A stretch of DNA of 64,000 nucleotides from a virus: the IMG/VR virus record IMGVR_UViG_3300008117_004020, positions 32,001 to 96,000 of that record; one strand, written 5' to 3'. Made by a program: the position numbers and the translations under genes. A model generated the notes under the pieces. The model had not been told where the DNA came from, searched no databases, and was given only the letters and a program-made list of their open reading frames with translations. The number at the start of each line of letters is the position of its first letter. Positions within the stretch are counted from its first letter, which is position 1. This document shows, in pieces, positions 6,976-51,510 of the stretch.

Positions 6976-7008
6976 AAAAAGGCCCCTTAAGTGGGGCCTA
7001 TATTTTTT
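6976..7008 (+). terminator. Rho-independent terminator, possibly bidirectional
   Basis: AAAAA-GGCCCC-TTAAGT-GGGGCC followed by a T-rich tail. Confidence 0.75.
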
Positions 7009-7131
7009 CTAGTTAAAGATATTTCAACTTCTGTACTACTTAACTGGCTTAACTGAGTTAACTAGGATTATTCTTAGTTAAGCTAGTTAACCTAGTTAAG
7101 CAGTTTAGGTATGGATTATACGTTAACTAGA
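7008..7131. repeat. Long imperfect palindrome with 9-bp periodic TTAACT repeats
   Basis: TTAACT at 7040/7049/7058, AGTTAA at 7076/7085/7094; outer TCTAGTTAA (7008) and TTAACTAGA (7123) share the same axis. Confidence 0.85.
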
Positions 7132-9577: not shown

Positions 9578-10102
9578 TTAAGCTTCATTTTGAGAAGGTG
9601 ATCCTTCTATGTTAAGAAATATTTTTCTAATGTTTAATGGAGGAGTATGATAGGCAGGTCTTCTTGCATCTAAAAGTCTAGACTTAGCTATCTTAGCTAC
9701 ATTTACAGCATTACCCTGATTACCACCAAGAACAAAATAATTTTTATTGTCTTCTCCTACATAGAATCCTACATGTCCACCACCACCTGGTCTCGTAAAC
9801 ACAAGAATATCCCCAAGCATAGGACTAGGAGACTTAACACCAAAATTTACCCAATTGCGAGCACCTAATAACCATTCAACAGGTTGTCTATCTGCTCTTT
9901 TAATACACACACCTACAAAAAGTCCACACCATGGAGTTTCATCGTTTCTGTATGTAATACCAAGTTCTCTAGCCCATCCCATAATAATAGGATTGTGCTT
10001 AGGACCCACTGTTTCTTCTACACCATAAAGCTCTAAAGCTTTAACAAGATGCCTGGGAGCCCCTTCAAGAGCTAGCCATGCATATTTTTTAGGAAGTTTC
10101 AT
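9578..10102 (-). CDS. Endolysin, TIGR02594/NlpC-P60 (CHAP-like) peptidase
   Basis: DETPWCG...GHVGFY...VLGGNQ. Confidence 0.85.
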   Translation of the reverse strand: MKLPKKYAWLALEGAPRHLVKALELYGVEETVGPKHNPIIMGWARELGITYRNDETPWCGLFVGVCIKRADRQPVEWLLGARNWVNFGVKSPSPMLGDILVFTRPGGGGHVGFYVGEDNKNYFVLGGNQGNAVNVAKIAKSRLLDARRPAYHTPPLNIRKIFLNIEGSPSQNEA

Positions 10103-10781: not shown

Positions 10782-11042
10782 TTAAGCTGTAACTGTTGTA
10801 TCAGCTTTAAAGCGACCAATGATAGATACAATTGTACCCAAAGCAGCCAACAATTGACCAACAATAACAGGCATAGAACCTTGAGAAGCTTTAATAGCTT
10901 CAGCATAAGCCTTCAATTGCTCAAAATCTGCATTAGCAGGAAGAGTGGGTTCTTCCACTCCAATCATTGACATTACAAATCCTAGAGCTGCAATTGCAAT
11001 ACCCCAGATTGTCTTAGATTGATACCACTTTTTTGTTTCCAT
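10782..11042 (-). CDS. Putative holin
   Basis: KKWYQSKTIW start, two TM helices, GR near the C-terminus. Confidence 0.65.
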   Translation of the reverse strand: METKKWYQSKTIWGIAIAALGFVMSMIGVEEPTLPANADFEQLKAYAEAIKASQGSMPVIVGQLLAALGTIVSIIGRFKADTTVTA

Positions 11043-11062
11043 TTTTATTTATATTTGGTGAA

Positions 11063-11593
11063 TTATATTATTTTATAGATATATGAAAAAGAGTAAAACC
11101 CACTTGTTGCAGTAGGATTATTATTTTCTACAGTTACTTTCCCAGATGAACCGCCTATTGCATAAATTTTACAAGAGGTATCATAAACAGCTACACCAGA
11201 TGCATCTGATTGTTCAACAAAATTACTAGCTATAGGTGTTTCCATATCAAATGCCCAAGCACCTGGGTCAATAATAACACTAACATCTAATACACCCCAT
11301 ACATACACCGTGTTTCCAATACGTATATAATTGACAAGTGATGGAAATAGTATTGAACAGTTGGATTGTGTCTGAAGAACTGGAGTAAAAGTACTTTGTA
11401 CAAAAGTTGGTGCTGGGTTAGCAACAGCTAGAGGACTACCCACTGTACCATTTCCTGTCAATGTAGCATCATGAGCCACTGCAGTGAGAGCAGTTCCACC
11501 AGATTCTAGAGCTGTCACTCTACCAGAGAGTCTTTTAATGAATTTAGTAAGCCAATCTAGCCTACCAAATATATCTGTAGATTTAGGATTCAT
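11063..11593 (-). CDS. Fiber-like structural protein
   Basis: VAHDATLTGNGTVGSPL motif and beta-rich C-terminal domain (YIRIGNTVYVWG). Confidence 0.5.
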   Translation of the reverse strand: MNPKSTDIFGRLDWLTKFIKRLSGRVTALESGGTALTAVAHDATLTGNGTVGSPLAVANPAPTFVQSTFTPVLQTQSNCSILFPSLVNYIRIGNTVYVWGVLDVSVIIDPGAWAFDMETPIASNFVEQSDASGVAVYDTSCKIYAIGGSSGKVTVENNNPTATSGFYSFSYIYKII

Positions 11594-11906
11594 AAGATTC
11601 TGATATTATGTTTTTATTCACATCATAGTATTCCTCAGGCTTAAAATAAAGCCTCATAAACCATGGGTAGTGAGTGTTAGCTATTGGTTTTTTACCAAAG
11701 ACTTCCTGCTCTAATGATCTTGTAGTTCTCTCAAGATTCTCAATTTTGGTCTTATCAATGTTGCTTTGAGCCAATAATTGCTTAACATCTGAGCGCATTT
11801 CTGTAATATCACGCCAAATCATTAAAGCTAAGAACGACACTAAAGATGGGAATACATACACCTTTAGTTTGTTGATGAAAGAATTTTCTTTAATTTCTGC
11901 AGCCAT
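11583..11906 (-). CDS. TM plus coiled-coil protein (lysis-associated?)
   Basis: One hydrophobic helix followed by a coiled coil. Confidence 0.55.
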   Translation of the reverse strand: MAAEIKENSFINKLKVYVFPSLVSFLALMIWRDITEMRSDVKQLLAQSNIDKTKIENLERTTRSLEQEVFGKKPIANTHYPWFMRLYFKPEEYYDVNKNIISESYES

Positions 11907-11953
11907 CTTTCAAAACAAATTTATATATTTACAAATAAAAATAATCACATTAT

Positions 11954-12077
11954 CAGACCATCCTACTGGGGTAAAACCCTGATTTACAATGAGTTATAGT
12001 TGTAGCACTGAGGATGTGCAAGTTAATCAGAACTGTTAACTTAGGGTTTTTTGTAGTCCCCAGCAGAAAATGGTCTG
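11954..12077 (-). ncRNA. Candidate structured RNA (long stem plus four-way junction)
   Basis: Nested complementary arms CAGACCAT/ATGGTCTG, CTACTGGGG/CCCCAGCAG, AAAACCCT/AGGGTTTT enclosing three hairpins. Confidence 0.7.
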
Positions 12078-12107
12078 TTAAGAACATTATTCTCTAATCA
12101 CTACTCC

Positions 12108-12123
12108 ATATAATATAATATAC
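12108..12123 (-). promoter_or_regulatory. Putative phage late promoter GTATATTATATTATAT
   Basis: Exact 16-mer also at 51495-51510; both lie upstream of minus-strand late genes. Confidence 0.65.
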
Positions 12124-12155
12124 TAAAATTTTACCTAATCTCCAATTTTAAAATT

Positions 12156-12623
12156 ATGATCAAAAAAGAAAACCTGCCTAGTGAAGACATTATAAAAATA
12201 CTTTCTAAGGAGTTTATTGAGCGAATTAAGAAGGAAACAGGCAAAGATTACAATATTCAAATCATCAATCACACTCTGATTGCCTCTAGAGTTGAGCAGA
12301 TTATTCCAAGAAAAATAGTGTCTCTTGATGATTTAGAGAAGATTATTCTACGCAATATGCCAGTTGAAATACCTAGTGGTAAGTTTAAGTCTAAGAGTAG
12401 AATTCGCGAGCTTGTGGATGCTAGGACCATATTCTGCTACATGGCCTGTAGGATATTTGGGTTCACTGTTACAAACGTAGGCAGATATCTAAAGAAGCAC
12501 CATACTAGCGTTATGTATCTAGTTAGAAAGTGCGAGATTCTTATGGAAGTTGATCCTGAATACTTGGGATTGTTTCAGTCAGTAAAAGACAAACTTAAAG
12601 AAGCATATGAAGAAGTTCTTTAA
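12156..12623 (+). CDS. DnaA C-terminal-like HTH protein
   Basis: KSRIRELVDARTIFCY...VGRYLKKHHTSVMY matches the DnaA domain IV pattern. Confidence 0.75.
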   Translation: MIKKENLPSEDIIKILSKEFIERIKKETGKDYNIQIINHTLIASRVEQIIPRKIVSLDDLEKIILRNMPVEIPSGKFKSKSRIRELVDARTIFCYMACRIFGFTVTNVGRYLKKHHTSVMYLVRKCEILMEVDPEYLGLFQSVKDKLKEAYEEVL

Positions 12624-13176
12624 TATGATTGTTAAGCTAGGTCTGTCTCCTAATGAAGCTTATGTGCTATTATGTTTGCACAATAAAGAGAAACCTCAGC
12701 AGGTTAATATAGACGAGTGTCTAAAATTCCTTTATAAAAAAGGGTTAATCACTACAGATTGTCATATAACTAGTAAGGGACTAAGTGTAGGTGACAAGCT
12801 AGAAAAGATAAAAAGATCATCTAAAAAACAATTAACAGACGAGGATAAAGTAAAAATCAAAGAGTATAGAGAACTGTTTCCAAAAGGTAAACTACCCTCT
12901 GGTTATCCCGCCAGAGTTACAGTGAAGGAACTAGAGAAGAAGTTTGAACATTTCTTCTCTAACTATGATTATGATTGGGACATAATCATAAAAGCCACCA
13001 AAAAGTATATACAAGAACATGAGCCTACATATGACTATATGAAGACCTCAAGTTATTTTATATTCAAGACTGGTGTAGACAAGACATCTGTTTCAGCACT
13101 GTCATCATATTGTGATATGATATTGGAATCAGATGAGGATGATAATCAAAATGTTACATTTTCAAGAGCAGTTTAA
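12607..13176 (+). CDS. Winged-helix replication-associated protein
   Basis: N-terminal wHTH-like segment (LSPNEAYVL...KKGLI...ITSKG); upstream of DnaB. Confidence 0.5.
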   Translation: MKKFFNMIVKLGLSPNEAYVLLCLHNKEKPQQVNIDECLKFLYKKGLITTDCHITSKGLSVGDKLEKIKRSSKKQLTDEDKVKIKEYRELFPKGKLPSGYPARVTVKELEKKFEHFFSNYDYDWDIIIKATKKYIQEHEPTYDYMKTSSYFIFKTGVDKTSVSALSSYCDMILESDEDDNQNVTFSRAV

Positions 13177-13177
13177 T

Positions 13178-13477
13178 ATGAGTGTATTAAAAGTTTATCC
13201 AGCTAAATACTGGCATGATAGTCCAGTGATTATAGGAAGCAAAGAAGCGTTGATAAGACTTAGAGATTTAATAGATCGTAGTCTTATTAATCCTGCAGAT
13301 TGCTGCCATGATCATTTTATAGAAGCAGATGGTAAAGAATTCATAGTTAAAGTGAGAGTTTACGATAGTGAAGAACTCCAGCTAGAAGACTTGCCAGCAC
13401 ATTATGAAGATGAAGAGCTTACAGAATCAGAGAAGAAATTCCTTTATAATTTTGTAAATGAAAGTCATGGATCATAG
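13178..13477 (+). CDS. Hypothetical protein
   Basis: Probable start MSVLKVY at 13178, directly after the upstream stop. Confidence 0.6.
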   Translation: MSVLKVYPAKYWHDSPVIIGSKEALIRLRDLIDRSLINPADCCHDHFIEADGKEFIVKVRVYDSEELQLEDLPAHYEDEELTESEKKFLYNFVNESHGS

Positions 13478-51494: not shown

Positions 51495-51510
51495 ATATAA
51501 TATAATATAC
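51495..51510 (-). promoter_or_regulatory. Putative late promoter GTATATTATATTATAT
   Basis: Identical to 12108-12123; ends 5 nt before ATG 51489. Confidence 0.65.

What the first reader, a model, noticed from the sequence alone, without database searches (positions are those of the whole stretch)
11954..12077. Cloverleaf-on-a-stalk RNA in the leader of the lysis operon
On the minus strand the sequence folds as CAGACCAU / CUGCUGGGG / AAAACCCU stacked stems closing a four-way junction with three hairpins: AAGUUAA-CAGUUCUGA-UUAACUU, GCAC-AUCCUCA-GUGC and UACAA-CUAUAACUCA-UUGUA. An A/C mismatch on the + strand becomes a G-U pair on the minus strand, supporting that orientation. It starts 30 nt downstream of the putative late promoter and ends 47 nt before the first gene. 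It lacks tRNA T-loop and D-loop consensus. Candidate novel riboregulator of lysis timing, tRNA mimic or decoy, or processed sRNA.
Basis: partly seen in the sequence, partly recalled or inferred. Interest (0 to 1): 0.75.

Follow-up and report, generated by a model that had tools for sequence, protein, structure and literature searches.

The report
Conserved branched leader RNA, crAss-like phage
A roughly 125-base RNA shaped like a three-hairpin head on a long stalk sits just behind a conserved phage promoter and ahead of the cell-lysis genes of an uncultured freshwater crAss-like phage; it is kept in shape in at least five different phages, matches no described RNA family, and its job is still unknown.

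Summary
Window 11954-12077 (minus strand) folds exactly as described (-44.2 kcal/mol, z -6.3).

The same architecture lies at the same place in four other distinct viral contigs, plus one near-copy. Pairing is kept by compensatory changes: 17 of 36 pairs change on both sides, 94% of cells pair, and 0 of 500 shuffles reach this. The sense strand folds better than the antisense in 5 of 5. G-U pairs outnumber A-C mismatches 15 to 4.

The element lies 12-30 nt behind a strongly conserved -35/-10-like phage promoter. It ends 35-49 nt before a 107-aa gene that opens a cassette containing holin-like and endolysin genes.

There is no Rfam match, no tRNA call, no terminator and no conserved ORF. It is single-copy in a 118-kb crAss-like genome.

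Related phages carry other structures at this position: a short hairpin, or different branched heads on a partly homologous stalk.

Best reading: a new cis-encoded structured leader RNA of the lysis cassette, with its long double-stranded stalk acting as a processing or stability determinant. That mechanism is inferred only. The tRNA-mimic idea is not supported. No expression data could be obtained.

The parts
12108..12145 (-). Conserved phage middle/late-type promoter. The -35-like TTGGAG lies 17 nt (TGGAGA by the scanner, 16 nt) before the -10-like TATATT, inside the invariant block GTATATTATATT.
   Evidence: Flagged by the sigma-70-type scan. The same block lies upstream of three other minus-strand ORFs in this genome. 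It lies upstream of the homologous gene in 50 of 56 related loci. The consensus TTTTAGGTT..AAAA.TT.GTATATTATATTGTA comes from 42 distinct sequences.
12078..12107 (-). 30-nt 5' segment of the leader between the promoter motif and the stalk. It is 12-17 nt in the four other homologs.
11954..12077 (-). The structured RNA element as a whole (124 nt).
   Evidence: Fold; CM hit of 149.4 bits; covariation; single copy in the genome.
12058..12077 (-). Stalk, 5' strand (two stems separated by a small bulge). It pairs with 11954-11971.
   Evidence: The sequence differs in every homolog but pairing is kept: 8 of 12 aligned stalk pairs change on both sides.
12051..12057 (-). One-sided 5' internal loop (ACUACAA). 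It is 7-16 nt and G-poor in all homologs.
12043..12050 (-). Inner stem, 5' strand (AAAACCCU). It pairs with 11973-11980.
   Evidence: 3 of 8 pairs change on both sides.
12020..12042 (-). Hairpin 1: stem GUUAA/UUAAC with loop containing AGUUCU. This is the most conserved part of the element.
   Evidence: 5 of 6 aligned pairs are invariant and the loop is nearly invariant across homologs.
12005..12019 (-). Hairpin 2: variable in sequence and length, with a pyrimidine-rich loop.
   Evidence: 4 of 5 aligned pairs change on both sides; sequences.
11985..12004 (-). Hairpin 3 (UACAA/UUGUA), with a loop containing UAAC in 4 of 5 homologs.
11981..11984 (-). Junction strand AAUC between hairpin 3 and the inner stem. 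It is part of the conserved block UUGUAAAUCAGG.
11954..11980 (-). 3' strands of the inner stem and the stalk.
11907..11953 (-). 47-nt A/U-rich spacer to the start codon (35-49 nt in homologs). It contains TGTAAA, shared with relatives, and a TAAATTTG box that is not conserved.
11583..11906 (-). First gene of the operon: 107 aa, with an N-terminal hydrophobic segment and the conserved motif DKTKIENLE. Function unknown.
   Evidence: No Pfam or PHROG hit. 56 related viral loci were found.
10782..11042 (-). 86-aa membrane protein, a holin-like candidate.
   Evidence: hydrophobic sequence. Only a weak PHROG hit, so this is an inference.
9578..10102 (-). 174-aa CHAP-domain lysozyme or endolysin candidate.
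   Evidence: PHROG 1259, 3.2e-29, plus endolysin PHROGs. Pfam CHAP scores 25.4 bits, just under its cut-off of 26. Peptidase_M15_4 endolysins occupy the equivalent place in L003 and L053.
12156..12623 (+). Divergent gene: 155-aa DnaA-C-terminal-like HTH protein, the first gene of the replication block.
   Evidence: Pfam Bac_DnaA_C, 39.5 bits. The same family lies on the divergent side in all four other homolog loci.

Best explanation
The element is a real, evolutionarily conserved RNA structure. It is transcribed in the sense of the minus-strand genes as the 5' leader of the lysis-gene cassette of a freshwater crAss-like phage.

Transcription starts at a conserved -35/-10-like phage promoter a few bases after the block GTATATTATATT. 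Some 12-30 nt later the RNA folds on its own into about 25 stacked base pairs (the stalk) interrupted by a one-sided loop. The stalk is topped by a four-way junction with one invariant hairpin (GUUAA..AGUUCU..UUAAC), one free-varying hairpin and one semi-conserved hairpin. An A/U-rich spacer of 35-49 nt then leads to the start codon.

Proposed mechanism, inferred and not shown: the domain acts in cis on this one operon. Its long double-stranded stalk serves as a processing or stability determinant, a substrate of RNase III type. That would decouple the lysis-cassette mRNA level from the other operons driven by the same promoter type. The conserved head would be the specificity part, a tertiary fold or a binding site for a factor.

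Steps shown by calls: the fold, its conservation and covariation, the strand, the position behind a conserved promoter, single copy, non-coding, and no known family. Steps inferred: transcription itself, processing, and any effect on lysis timing.

My confidence that it is a conserved sense-strand RNA structure is about 0.85. The confidence figure given with this explanation is for the cis processing/stability mechanism.
For: Fold: z -6.3 in the window and -7.5 in L003. All five distinct homologs give the same architecture, with z from -4.5 to -7.7.

Covariation on the 6-row alignment A7 (5 distinct sequences plus one near-copy): 94.3% of 211 cells pair and 17 of 36 pairs change on both sides. 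0 of 500 shuffles reach this, and slid controls give 2-5 such pairs.

Strand: sense is more stable than antisense in 5 of 5, by 1.4 to 11.5 kcal/mol. G-U pairs number 15 against 4 A-C mismatches in the five distinct rows, one-sided binomial p about 0.01.

Promoter: the motif lies before three other minus-strand ORFs of this genome, which have no such leader. It lies before the homologous gene in 50 of 56 loci, with -35/-10 geometry. [quoted passage not shown]

Autonomy: in folds of the whole leader plus 36 nt of coding sequence, the element forms unchanged in 5 of 5.

Synteny is the same in all five: DnaA_C-like gene, then promoter and element, then the 107-aa family gene, with an endolysin found downstream in three of them (window, L003/L040, L053).

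Other leaders: all relatives inspected have some hairpin or branched structure in this leader. In the one comparison I read (L007, class B, against L053, class A; sequences) the stalk base (AGAACC.. / ..GGUUCU) is shared. The stalk adds up to about 25 bp, the size of double-stranded RNA that RNase III recognises (the size is recalled).
Against: No expression data were obtained. Nothing shows that the RNA is made, cut or stable.

RNase III cleavage cannot be predicted from sequence. The host is unknown and the phage is uncultured.

A plain processing site would not need a head in which one hairpin is invariant across phages whose neighbouring protein is only 45-50% identical. That points to a specific partner which this model does not name.

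The 5' single-stranded tail of 12-30 nt argues against a simple 5'-end-protecting hairpin.

Only five independent sequences exist. The alignment used for counting was fitted to a model of the structure, which inflates pairing.

The element is patchy on the tree of the adjacent gene: 4 changes are needed and the label is not clustered, 275 of 500 shuffles being as low.
Confidence: 0.4

Rival explanations
1. It is a stable, trans-acting phage non-coding RNA. The rod with paired ends is cut out of the leader and accumulates. The conserved head binds a host or phage factor, for example as a decoy or sponge for a host defence or RNA-binding protein. Related phages swap heads on a common stalk.
For: It is a closed rod with 5' and 3' ends paired and it folds autonomously. 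One hairpin is invariant in sequence while the stems covary. Different heads stand on a stalk base that is shared in the one class A / class B comparison I read (L053 against L007). Distribution on the neighbouring-gene tree is patchy. phi14:2 makes abundant intergenic non-coding RNAs of unknown function (passages read).
Against: No terminator follows the element, so release would need processing. It is always at one fixed place in one operon's leader and is single-copy. No convincing complementary target for the loops was found in the phage genome. No RNA data exist.
Confidence: 0.2
2. It is a cis-acting recruiting RNA. The nascent structure binds RNA polymerase or a phage or host protein directly behind the promoter. 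This would make transcription of the cassette termination-resistant (like HK022 put), or would act as an operator for translational repression of the first gene.
For: It lies 12-30 nt behind the promoter and at a constant 35-49 nt from the start codon. The conserved head suggests a specific partner. A weak terminator-like hairpin lies inside the operon at 11116-11099, before the holin-like gene.
Against: The start-codon region is neither consistently sequestered nor linked to the element in the folds. Only one weak internal terminator candidate exists. There is no similarity to any Rfam family. Most relatives manage with a short hairpin in this place.
Confidence: 0.15
3. It is a DNA-level element. 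The inverted repeats act in DNA as an operator for the divergent replication-gene promoter, as a cruciform, or as a single-strand initiation or origin structure next to the DnaA_C-like and helicase genes.
For: It lies in the divergent region next to a DnaA_C-like HTH gene and a DnaB-like helicase. The + strand also folds well (z -3.9). Hairpin 1 is an invariant inverted repeat, GGTTAA-N10-TTAACC in four of the five (GTTAA..TTAAC in the window), like a dimer-binding site. In 25 of 40 distinct relatives the loop of the short hairpin reads TAnnTTTG on the opposite strand, the Bacteroidota -7 promoter box (consensus recalled), so this DNA is used in both directions.
Against: Sense is more stable than antisense in 5 of 5, and G-U outnumber A-C 15 to 4. 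Stalk and hairpin 2 covary freely in sequence, which a protein-read operator would not allow. No DnaA box lies in the intergenic region. The antisense -7 box is absent from 4 of the 5 elements of this class. GC skew follows gene direction and singles out no origin here.
Confidence: 0.08
4. It is a tRNA mimic or degenerate tRNA, used as an RNase P/Z processing signal or as a decoy for tRNA-targeting defences.
For: The shape is four-way, with three hairpins on a closing stem. An unchecked first-reader note reports a tRNA-like shell elsewhere in this genome (not tested).
Against: ARAGORN finds nothing. There is no tRNA-clan hit in Rfam at E up to 10. There is no T-loop or D-loop consensus. The closing stem is about 25 bp, not 7. 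The linker pattern is 0 / 0-2 / 0-1 / 3-4 nt, the reverse of tRNA. The hairpin in the 'anticodon' position is the variable one.
Confidence: 0.03

Closest known systems
RNase III processing hairpins in phage leaders (T7 R1.1 and related sites; the lambda N-leader site) - recalled, not tested
   Same: An irregular double-stranded rod of about two helical turns with an internal loop. It lies in a phage transcript just behind a promoter and ahead of the genes it affects.
   Different: Those sites are simple hairpins without a conserved branched head. No cleavage is shown here, and there is no sequence relation.
Lambda late leader (pR' to tR', '6S RNA', about 190 nt) upstream of the lysis genes S-R-Rz - recalled
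   Same: A leader of about 200 nt between a late promoter and the lysis cassette, where a post-initiation step controls late expression.
   Different: The lambda leader works through an intrinsic terminator and protein Q acting at the promoter. No terminator is found here and no Q-like gene was identified.
HK022 put RNA (cis-acting antitermination RNA) - recalled
   Same: A structured RNA made immediately downstream of a phage promoter and acting in cis.
   Different: put has two stem-loops with no long stalk. No similarity was found in the Rfam scan at E up to 10.
Intergenic non-coding RNAs of the crAss-like phage phi14:2 (bioRxiv 10.1101/2020.03.07.982082, passages read)
   Same: Non-coding transcripts of a crAss-like phage with unknown function. 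In that phage the host polymerase uses a -35/-10-like phage promoter motif.
   Different: Those lie at the g004-g006 junctions and are made from early in infection.
tRNA and tRNA-like structures
   Same: A four-way junction with three hairpins.
   Different: It fails every tRNA-specific feature tested (see the membership test).

Membership tests
tRNA / tRNA-like | Cloverleaf recognised by a tRNA finder | tested here: not met
   ARAGORN finds 0 genes in the whole window.
tRNA / tRNA-like | 7-bp acceptor stem, T-loop and D-loop consensus, and tRNA linker pattern (2 nt / 1 nt / variable loop / 0 nt) | tested here: not met
   The closing stem is about 25 bp. The loops are CAGUUCUGA, AUCCUCA and CUAUAACUCA. 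The linkers are 0 / 0-2 / 0-1 / 3-4 nt. The tRNA consensus itself is recalled.
Any Rfam 15 family (including riboswitches, ribozymes, Y/YrlA, 6S, put-like) | Covariance-model score at or above the family's gathering score | tested here: not met
   On 11500-12600, both strands, E up to 10, the best hit over the element is MIR6217 at 18.7 bits against a gathering score of 110.
Intrinsic terminator / attenuator | G+C-rich hairpin followed directly by a U run | tested here: not met
   0 terminator-like sites in 11500-12700. The bases of the stalks are A/U-rich and the tails are not consistent among homologs.
Riboswitch | Aptamer coupled to an expression platform through alternative pairing with a terminator or the start region | tested here: inconclusive
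   The element folds as a closed domain in 5 of 5 full-leader folds and the start region is not consistently sequestered. A closing stalk of about 25 bp is atypical for a switch. Ligand binding is not testable here.
RNase III substrate | About 20 bp or more of coaxial double-stranded RNA | tested here: met
   Stems of 8-9, 9 and 8 bp stack in the predicted fold. The equivalent stalks are kept in all homologs. This rests on predicted structure only.
RNase III substrate | Specific cleavage by RNase III | not testable with these tools
   Needs an enzyme assay or 5'/3'-end mapping.
Conserved structured RNA (generic criterion) | Base pairs kept by compensatory changes beyond controls | tested here: met
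   17 of 36 pairs change on both sides, 0 of 500 shuffles reach this, and slid controls give 2-5. Caveats: 5 independent sequences and a model-fitted alignment.
Sigma-70-type (host polymerase) phage promoter | -35 and -10 hexamers spaced 16-18 nt apart, recurring upstream of genes | tested here: met
   TGGAGA-16-TATATT. The consensus is conserved in 42 distinct sequences. Four copies lie before minus-strand ORFs in the genome. Activity was not tested.
Protein-coding small ORF | Open frame conserved in homologs | tested here: not met
   The 44-aa ORF at 11953-12087 is broken by stops in all frames in the four other homologs.

The most novel reading that the evidence does not exclude
The rod-and-head RNA is excised from the lysis-cassette leader and acts in trans as a stable phage RNA. 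Its invariant hairpin and junction would capture a host factor, such as a defence nuclease or an RNA-binding regulator. The different heads seen on a partly homologous stalk in sister phages would be alternative modules exchanged in an arms race. This would be a modular RNA display cassette in Crassvirales.
Probability: 0.15. Interest if true: 0.8.

Novelty: new variant of a known kind. Interest (0 to 1): 0.5.

Why it matters
Very little is known about how crAss-like phages, among the most abundant phages in guts and waters, time gene expression and lysis after transcription starts. This is a concrete, covariation-supported RNA domain sitting between a conserved phage promoter and the lysis genes.

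The same slot holds a short hairpin or other branched RNAs in sister phages. That gives a defined, testable handle through reporter fusions, RNase III assays and structure probing on post-transcriptional control in this group. It also adds a candidate new RNA family that Rfam lacks.

Its narrow distribution (five distinct sequences, all from uncultured freshwater viruses) and unknown function limit its present weight.

Tried and rejected
Similarity searches that gave nothing:
- Rfam scan at permissive E: only far-sub-threshold microRNA noise.
- blastn of 11000-13200 against cultured-phage records: no match.
- Single-protein locus searches with the DnaA_C-like protein and the helicase in viral contigs: no relatives.
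- The DnaA_C-like protein has no relative other than itself in the 5.8-billion-protein search.

Pattern scans for more copies of the element:
- The exact 20-mer and the two-block pattern in viral contigs returned only contigs already known.
- The same pattern in metagenome contigs returned three loci: one identical to the window, one identical to L029, and one near-copy, L068.
- The same pattern in genome contigs returned 0.
- The hairpin-1-only pattern returned 12 stretches: 4 known and 8 others. Seven of the eight are near-identical copies of one unrelated sequence and one is another unrelated sequence. The model matches only the 20-nt hairpin there (E 0.07-0.09). I rejected these as chance.

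Model searches:
- The second model, R2, found no further members among 54 sources. All hits with E above 0.5 were treated as noise. So were the three weak hits (E 0.8-5.8).

Expression:
- No RNA holder was listed for window 11500-12700. The three tiny lake metatranscriptome runs listed hold next to none of its words.

Other ideas tested and dropped:
- Trans-target search with the loop complements in the phage genome: only imperfect intragenic matches.
- DnaA box search: none in the intergenic region. The single 2-mismatch hit lies inside the 107-aa gene.
- GC skew follows gene direction and marks no origin here.
- Loop-loop or loop-to-5'-end pseudoknots (AGUU with AACU; GUUCUA with UAGAAC) and an alternative pairing of the 5' internal loop with the 3' strand of hairpin 3 were read by eye. 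They hold in only some homologs and were not pursued.

Literature:
- Searches for crAss-like phages with non-coding or structured RNA, or with lysis leaders, found nothing describing this element. That covers these three searches only, not the whole literature.
- The supplements of the phi14:2 preprint, with its promoter list and logo, could not be seen, so identity of that motif with the one here is not established.

Rows dropped before counts:
- L054, L055 and L059 were left out of the promoter consensus and the leader table because their motif matches are weak or distant. L058, L060 and L061 had no motif.
- Identical sequences were collapsed: 51 to 42, and 57 to 48 proteins, where proteins under 60 aa were also dropped.
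- L068 was left out of the G-U/A-C count.

Full report
**What is there**

The window is bases 32001-96000 of a 118,147-base IMG/VR virus record that is 98% complete by CheckV. Its DnaB-like helicase is closest, at 32-35% identity, to crAss-like phages.

Stacked stems of 8-9, 9 and 8 bp form the stalk. A 7-nt loop on the 5' side only interrupts it. A four-way junction carries three hairpins. The minimum free energy is -44.2 kcal/mol, z is -6.32, and 0 of 200 shuffles fold as well. The + strand is weaker (z -3.92).

ARAGORN finds no tRNA in the window. Rfam 15 at E up to 10 gives only microRNA noise far below the gathering scores. The element is single-copy in the genome by BLAST and by covariance model. 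The 44-aa ORF that overlaps it is not conserved: every frame is broken by stops in the other homologs.

**Context**

The element lies in the 249-bp divergent region 11907-12155.

On the minus-strand side there is a 107-aa gene of unknown function. It is followed by a 176-aa gene, an 86-aa membrane protein, a 197-aa membrane protein and a 174-aa CHAP-type lysozyme. On the plus-strand side there is a DnaA-C-terminal-like HTH protein, then a conserved 189-aa protein and a DnaB-like helicase. The minus-strand island (genome 39.2-43.9 kb) lies between two plus-strand blocks.

**Promoter**

Thirty nt upstream of the stalk lies GTATATTATATTATAT. A -35-like hexamer sits 16-17 nt before its TATATT.

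The same block, preceded by an A/T-rich run, occurs on the minus strand at three more places in the genome. Each is 10-45 nt before an ORF start and none has a structured leader.

Upstream of homologs of the 107-aa gene the motif is present in 50 of 56 viral loci. In L054, L055 and L059 the match is weak or distant. L058, L060 and L061 have none. The consensus from 42 distinct sequences is TTTTAGGTT..AAAA.TT.GTATATTATATTGTA.

Passages of the phi14:2 preprint read state that middle and late genes of that crAss-like phage are transcribed by host RNA polymerase. The promoter there is an extended tripartite motif with -35- and -10-like blocks. They also state that two intergenic non-coding RNAs of unknown function are abundant. 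I could not see the logo or the supplements, so identity of the two motifs is not established.

**Homologs and covariation**

A search with the 107-aa protein found four loci. One of them, L003, on an 88-kb contig, has the same architecture at the same place (z -7.49), with different stalk and inner-stem sequences.

A family alignment of the protein then found 56 loci. A covariance model built from two sequences hit the same position in L040 (the L003 contig), L053, L030 and L029, at 60-147 bits.

Pattern scans of viral, metagenome and genome contigs added only an identical copy of the window, an identical copy of L029 and one near-copy, L068. A second model found no more. The family therefore has five distinct members.

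On the model-based alignment, the RNAalifold structure has 36 pairs. Of 211 cells, 94.3% pair. Seventeen pairs change on both sides. None of 500 shuffles reaches the observed values, and sliding the partners by 1-3 columns gives 2-5 such pairs.

Stalk and hairpin 2 covary most. Hairpin 1 (GUUAA..AGUUCU..UUAAC) and the block UUGUAAAUCAGG are nearly invariant, although the adjacent protein is only 45-50% identical.

Caveats: there are five independent sequences, and the alignment was fitted to the model.

**Strand and level**

The sense strand folds better than the antisense in 5 of 5 homologs, by 1.4, 5.2, 1.5, 11.5 and 9.0 kcal/mol. In the aligned pairs of the five distinct rows, G-U pairs number 15 and A-C mismatches 4. 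Both results favour an RNA read in the direction of the lysis genes over a DNA palindrome.

No DnaA box lies in the intergenic region. GC skew follows gene orientation and does not single out this site.

**Architecture relative to the gene**

The stalk begins 12-30 nt after the promoter block and ends 35-49 nt before the start codon. In folds of the whole leader plus 36 nt of coding sequence the element forms unchanged in 5 of 5, and the start region is not consistently sequestered. No intrinsic terminator follows it.

Synteny is the same in all five loci: DnaA_C-like gene, promoter and element, then the 107-aa family gene. Peptidase_M15_4 endolysins lie downstream in L003 and L053, where the window has its CHAP enzyme.

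**What the relatives have instead**

Most relatives have leaders of 51-120 nt, with a short hairpin starting right after the promoter. In 25 of 40 distinct leaders the loop of that hairpin reads CAAAnnTA at +14 to +24. On the other strand this is TAnnTTTG, the Bacteroidota -7 promoter box (consensus recalled), pointing at the replication genes. Four of the five elements of the present class lack this box.

L007 and L016 carry a different branched structure (z -3.2 for the 183-nt L007 domain and -4.1 for L016; sense is the more stable strand). Its stalk base (AGAACC.. / ..GGUUCU) is shared with that of L053, by my reading of the sequences. L039, L052 and L057 carry still other structures. L041, L042, L043 and L049 have an extra small membrane ORF.

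On a tree of the adjacent protein, the five carriers are not one group. Four changes are needed, starred branches force at least 3, and the label is not clustered against shuffles. The protein is short and several rows sit on long branches.

**Interpretation**

The element is best read as a new, conserved, autonomously folding leader RNA of the lysis cassette. Three facts point to operon-specific control after initiation. The same promoter type drives other operons without such a leader. This slot always holds some stable structure. The closing helix is about 25 bp long.

The most economical mechanism is a processing or stability determinant of the RNase III-substrate type, with the conserved head as a fold or binding module. 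That mechanism is inferred.

The invariant hairpin and the exchangeable heads keep two rivals alive: a stable trans-acting RNA and a protein-recruiting RNA. A DNA-level role is less likely given the strand asymmetry. The tRNA-mimic idea fails every feature tested.

**Limits**

No RNA evidence was found: no RNA holder was listed. The host is unknown. Literature searches found no description of this element, which speaks only for those searches.

Noticed in passing
window 51495-51510 (-); genome 108772-108787 (-) and 102167-102182 (-), the last two outside the window: Further copies of the promoter block GTATATTATATTATA(T/A), preceded by an A/T-rich run, lie 10-45 nt before minus-strand ORF starts (1035-aa, 372-aa and 193-aa ORFs). 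They look like the phage's middle/late promoters. None is followed by a structured leader.
   Followed up: partly
L008-L049 leaders, +14 to +24 after the promoter block (for example L019 2416-2423): In 25 of 40 distinct related leaders, the loop of the short 5' hairpin reads CAAAnnTA. This is TAnnTTTG on the opposite strand, and only the two 'n' positions vary. It fits a Bacteroidota -7 promoter box (consensus recalled) pointing at the divergent replication genes, flanked by an inverted repeat that could be an operator.
   Followed up: partly
L007 2324-2448 and L016 2327-2447 (+): A second, different branched RNA structure (long stalk, 24-nt one-sided loop, two-hairpin head) occupies the same leader position. 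Between the two sequences there is a compensatory change (CCAGG/CCTGG to CCGGG/CCCGG, by my reading). Its stalk base is shared with that of L053. z is -3.2 for the 183-nt L007 domain and -4.1 for L016.
   Followed up: partly
L039 2335-2450; L052 and L057 leaders: Further unrelated structured leaders of 159-200 nt lie behind the same promoter. The slot seems to hold exchangeable RNA structures.
   Followed up: no
L041, L042, L043 and L049 leaders (about +77 to +245 after the promoter): A small ORF for a hydrophobic peptide (starting MKNWKTTLGG...) is inserted between the short hairpin and the 107-aa gene homolog.
   Followed up: no
window 6980-6999: A strong bidirectional terminator-like hairpin (7 bp, 6 of them G-C, with T runs on both sides) stands at the convergent end of the minus-strand island. 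An earlier unchecked note reports an iteron-like array next to it (7009-7130).
   Followed up: no
window 11099-11116 (-): A weak terminator-like hairpin with a U-rich tail lies inside the end of the 176-aa gene, just before the 86-aa holin-like gene. It could be an internal attenuator of the lysis genes.
   Followed up: no
window 12156-12623 (+): The DnaA_C-like HTH protein has no relative other than itself in the 5.8-billion-protein word-based search. Yet Pfam recognises the same domain in the syntenic proteins of L003, L029, L030 and L053, so this is a very fast-evolving family.
   Followed up: partly
genome about 30.9-31.2 kb (about 0.8-1.05 kb before the window start): Earlier unchecked first-reader notes report a tRNA-like shell and an ORF-free cluster of structured RNAs there. 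They may be the counterpart of the abundant intergenic RNAs of phi14:2. I did not examine them.
   Followed up: no
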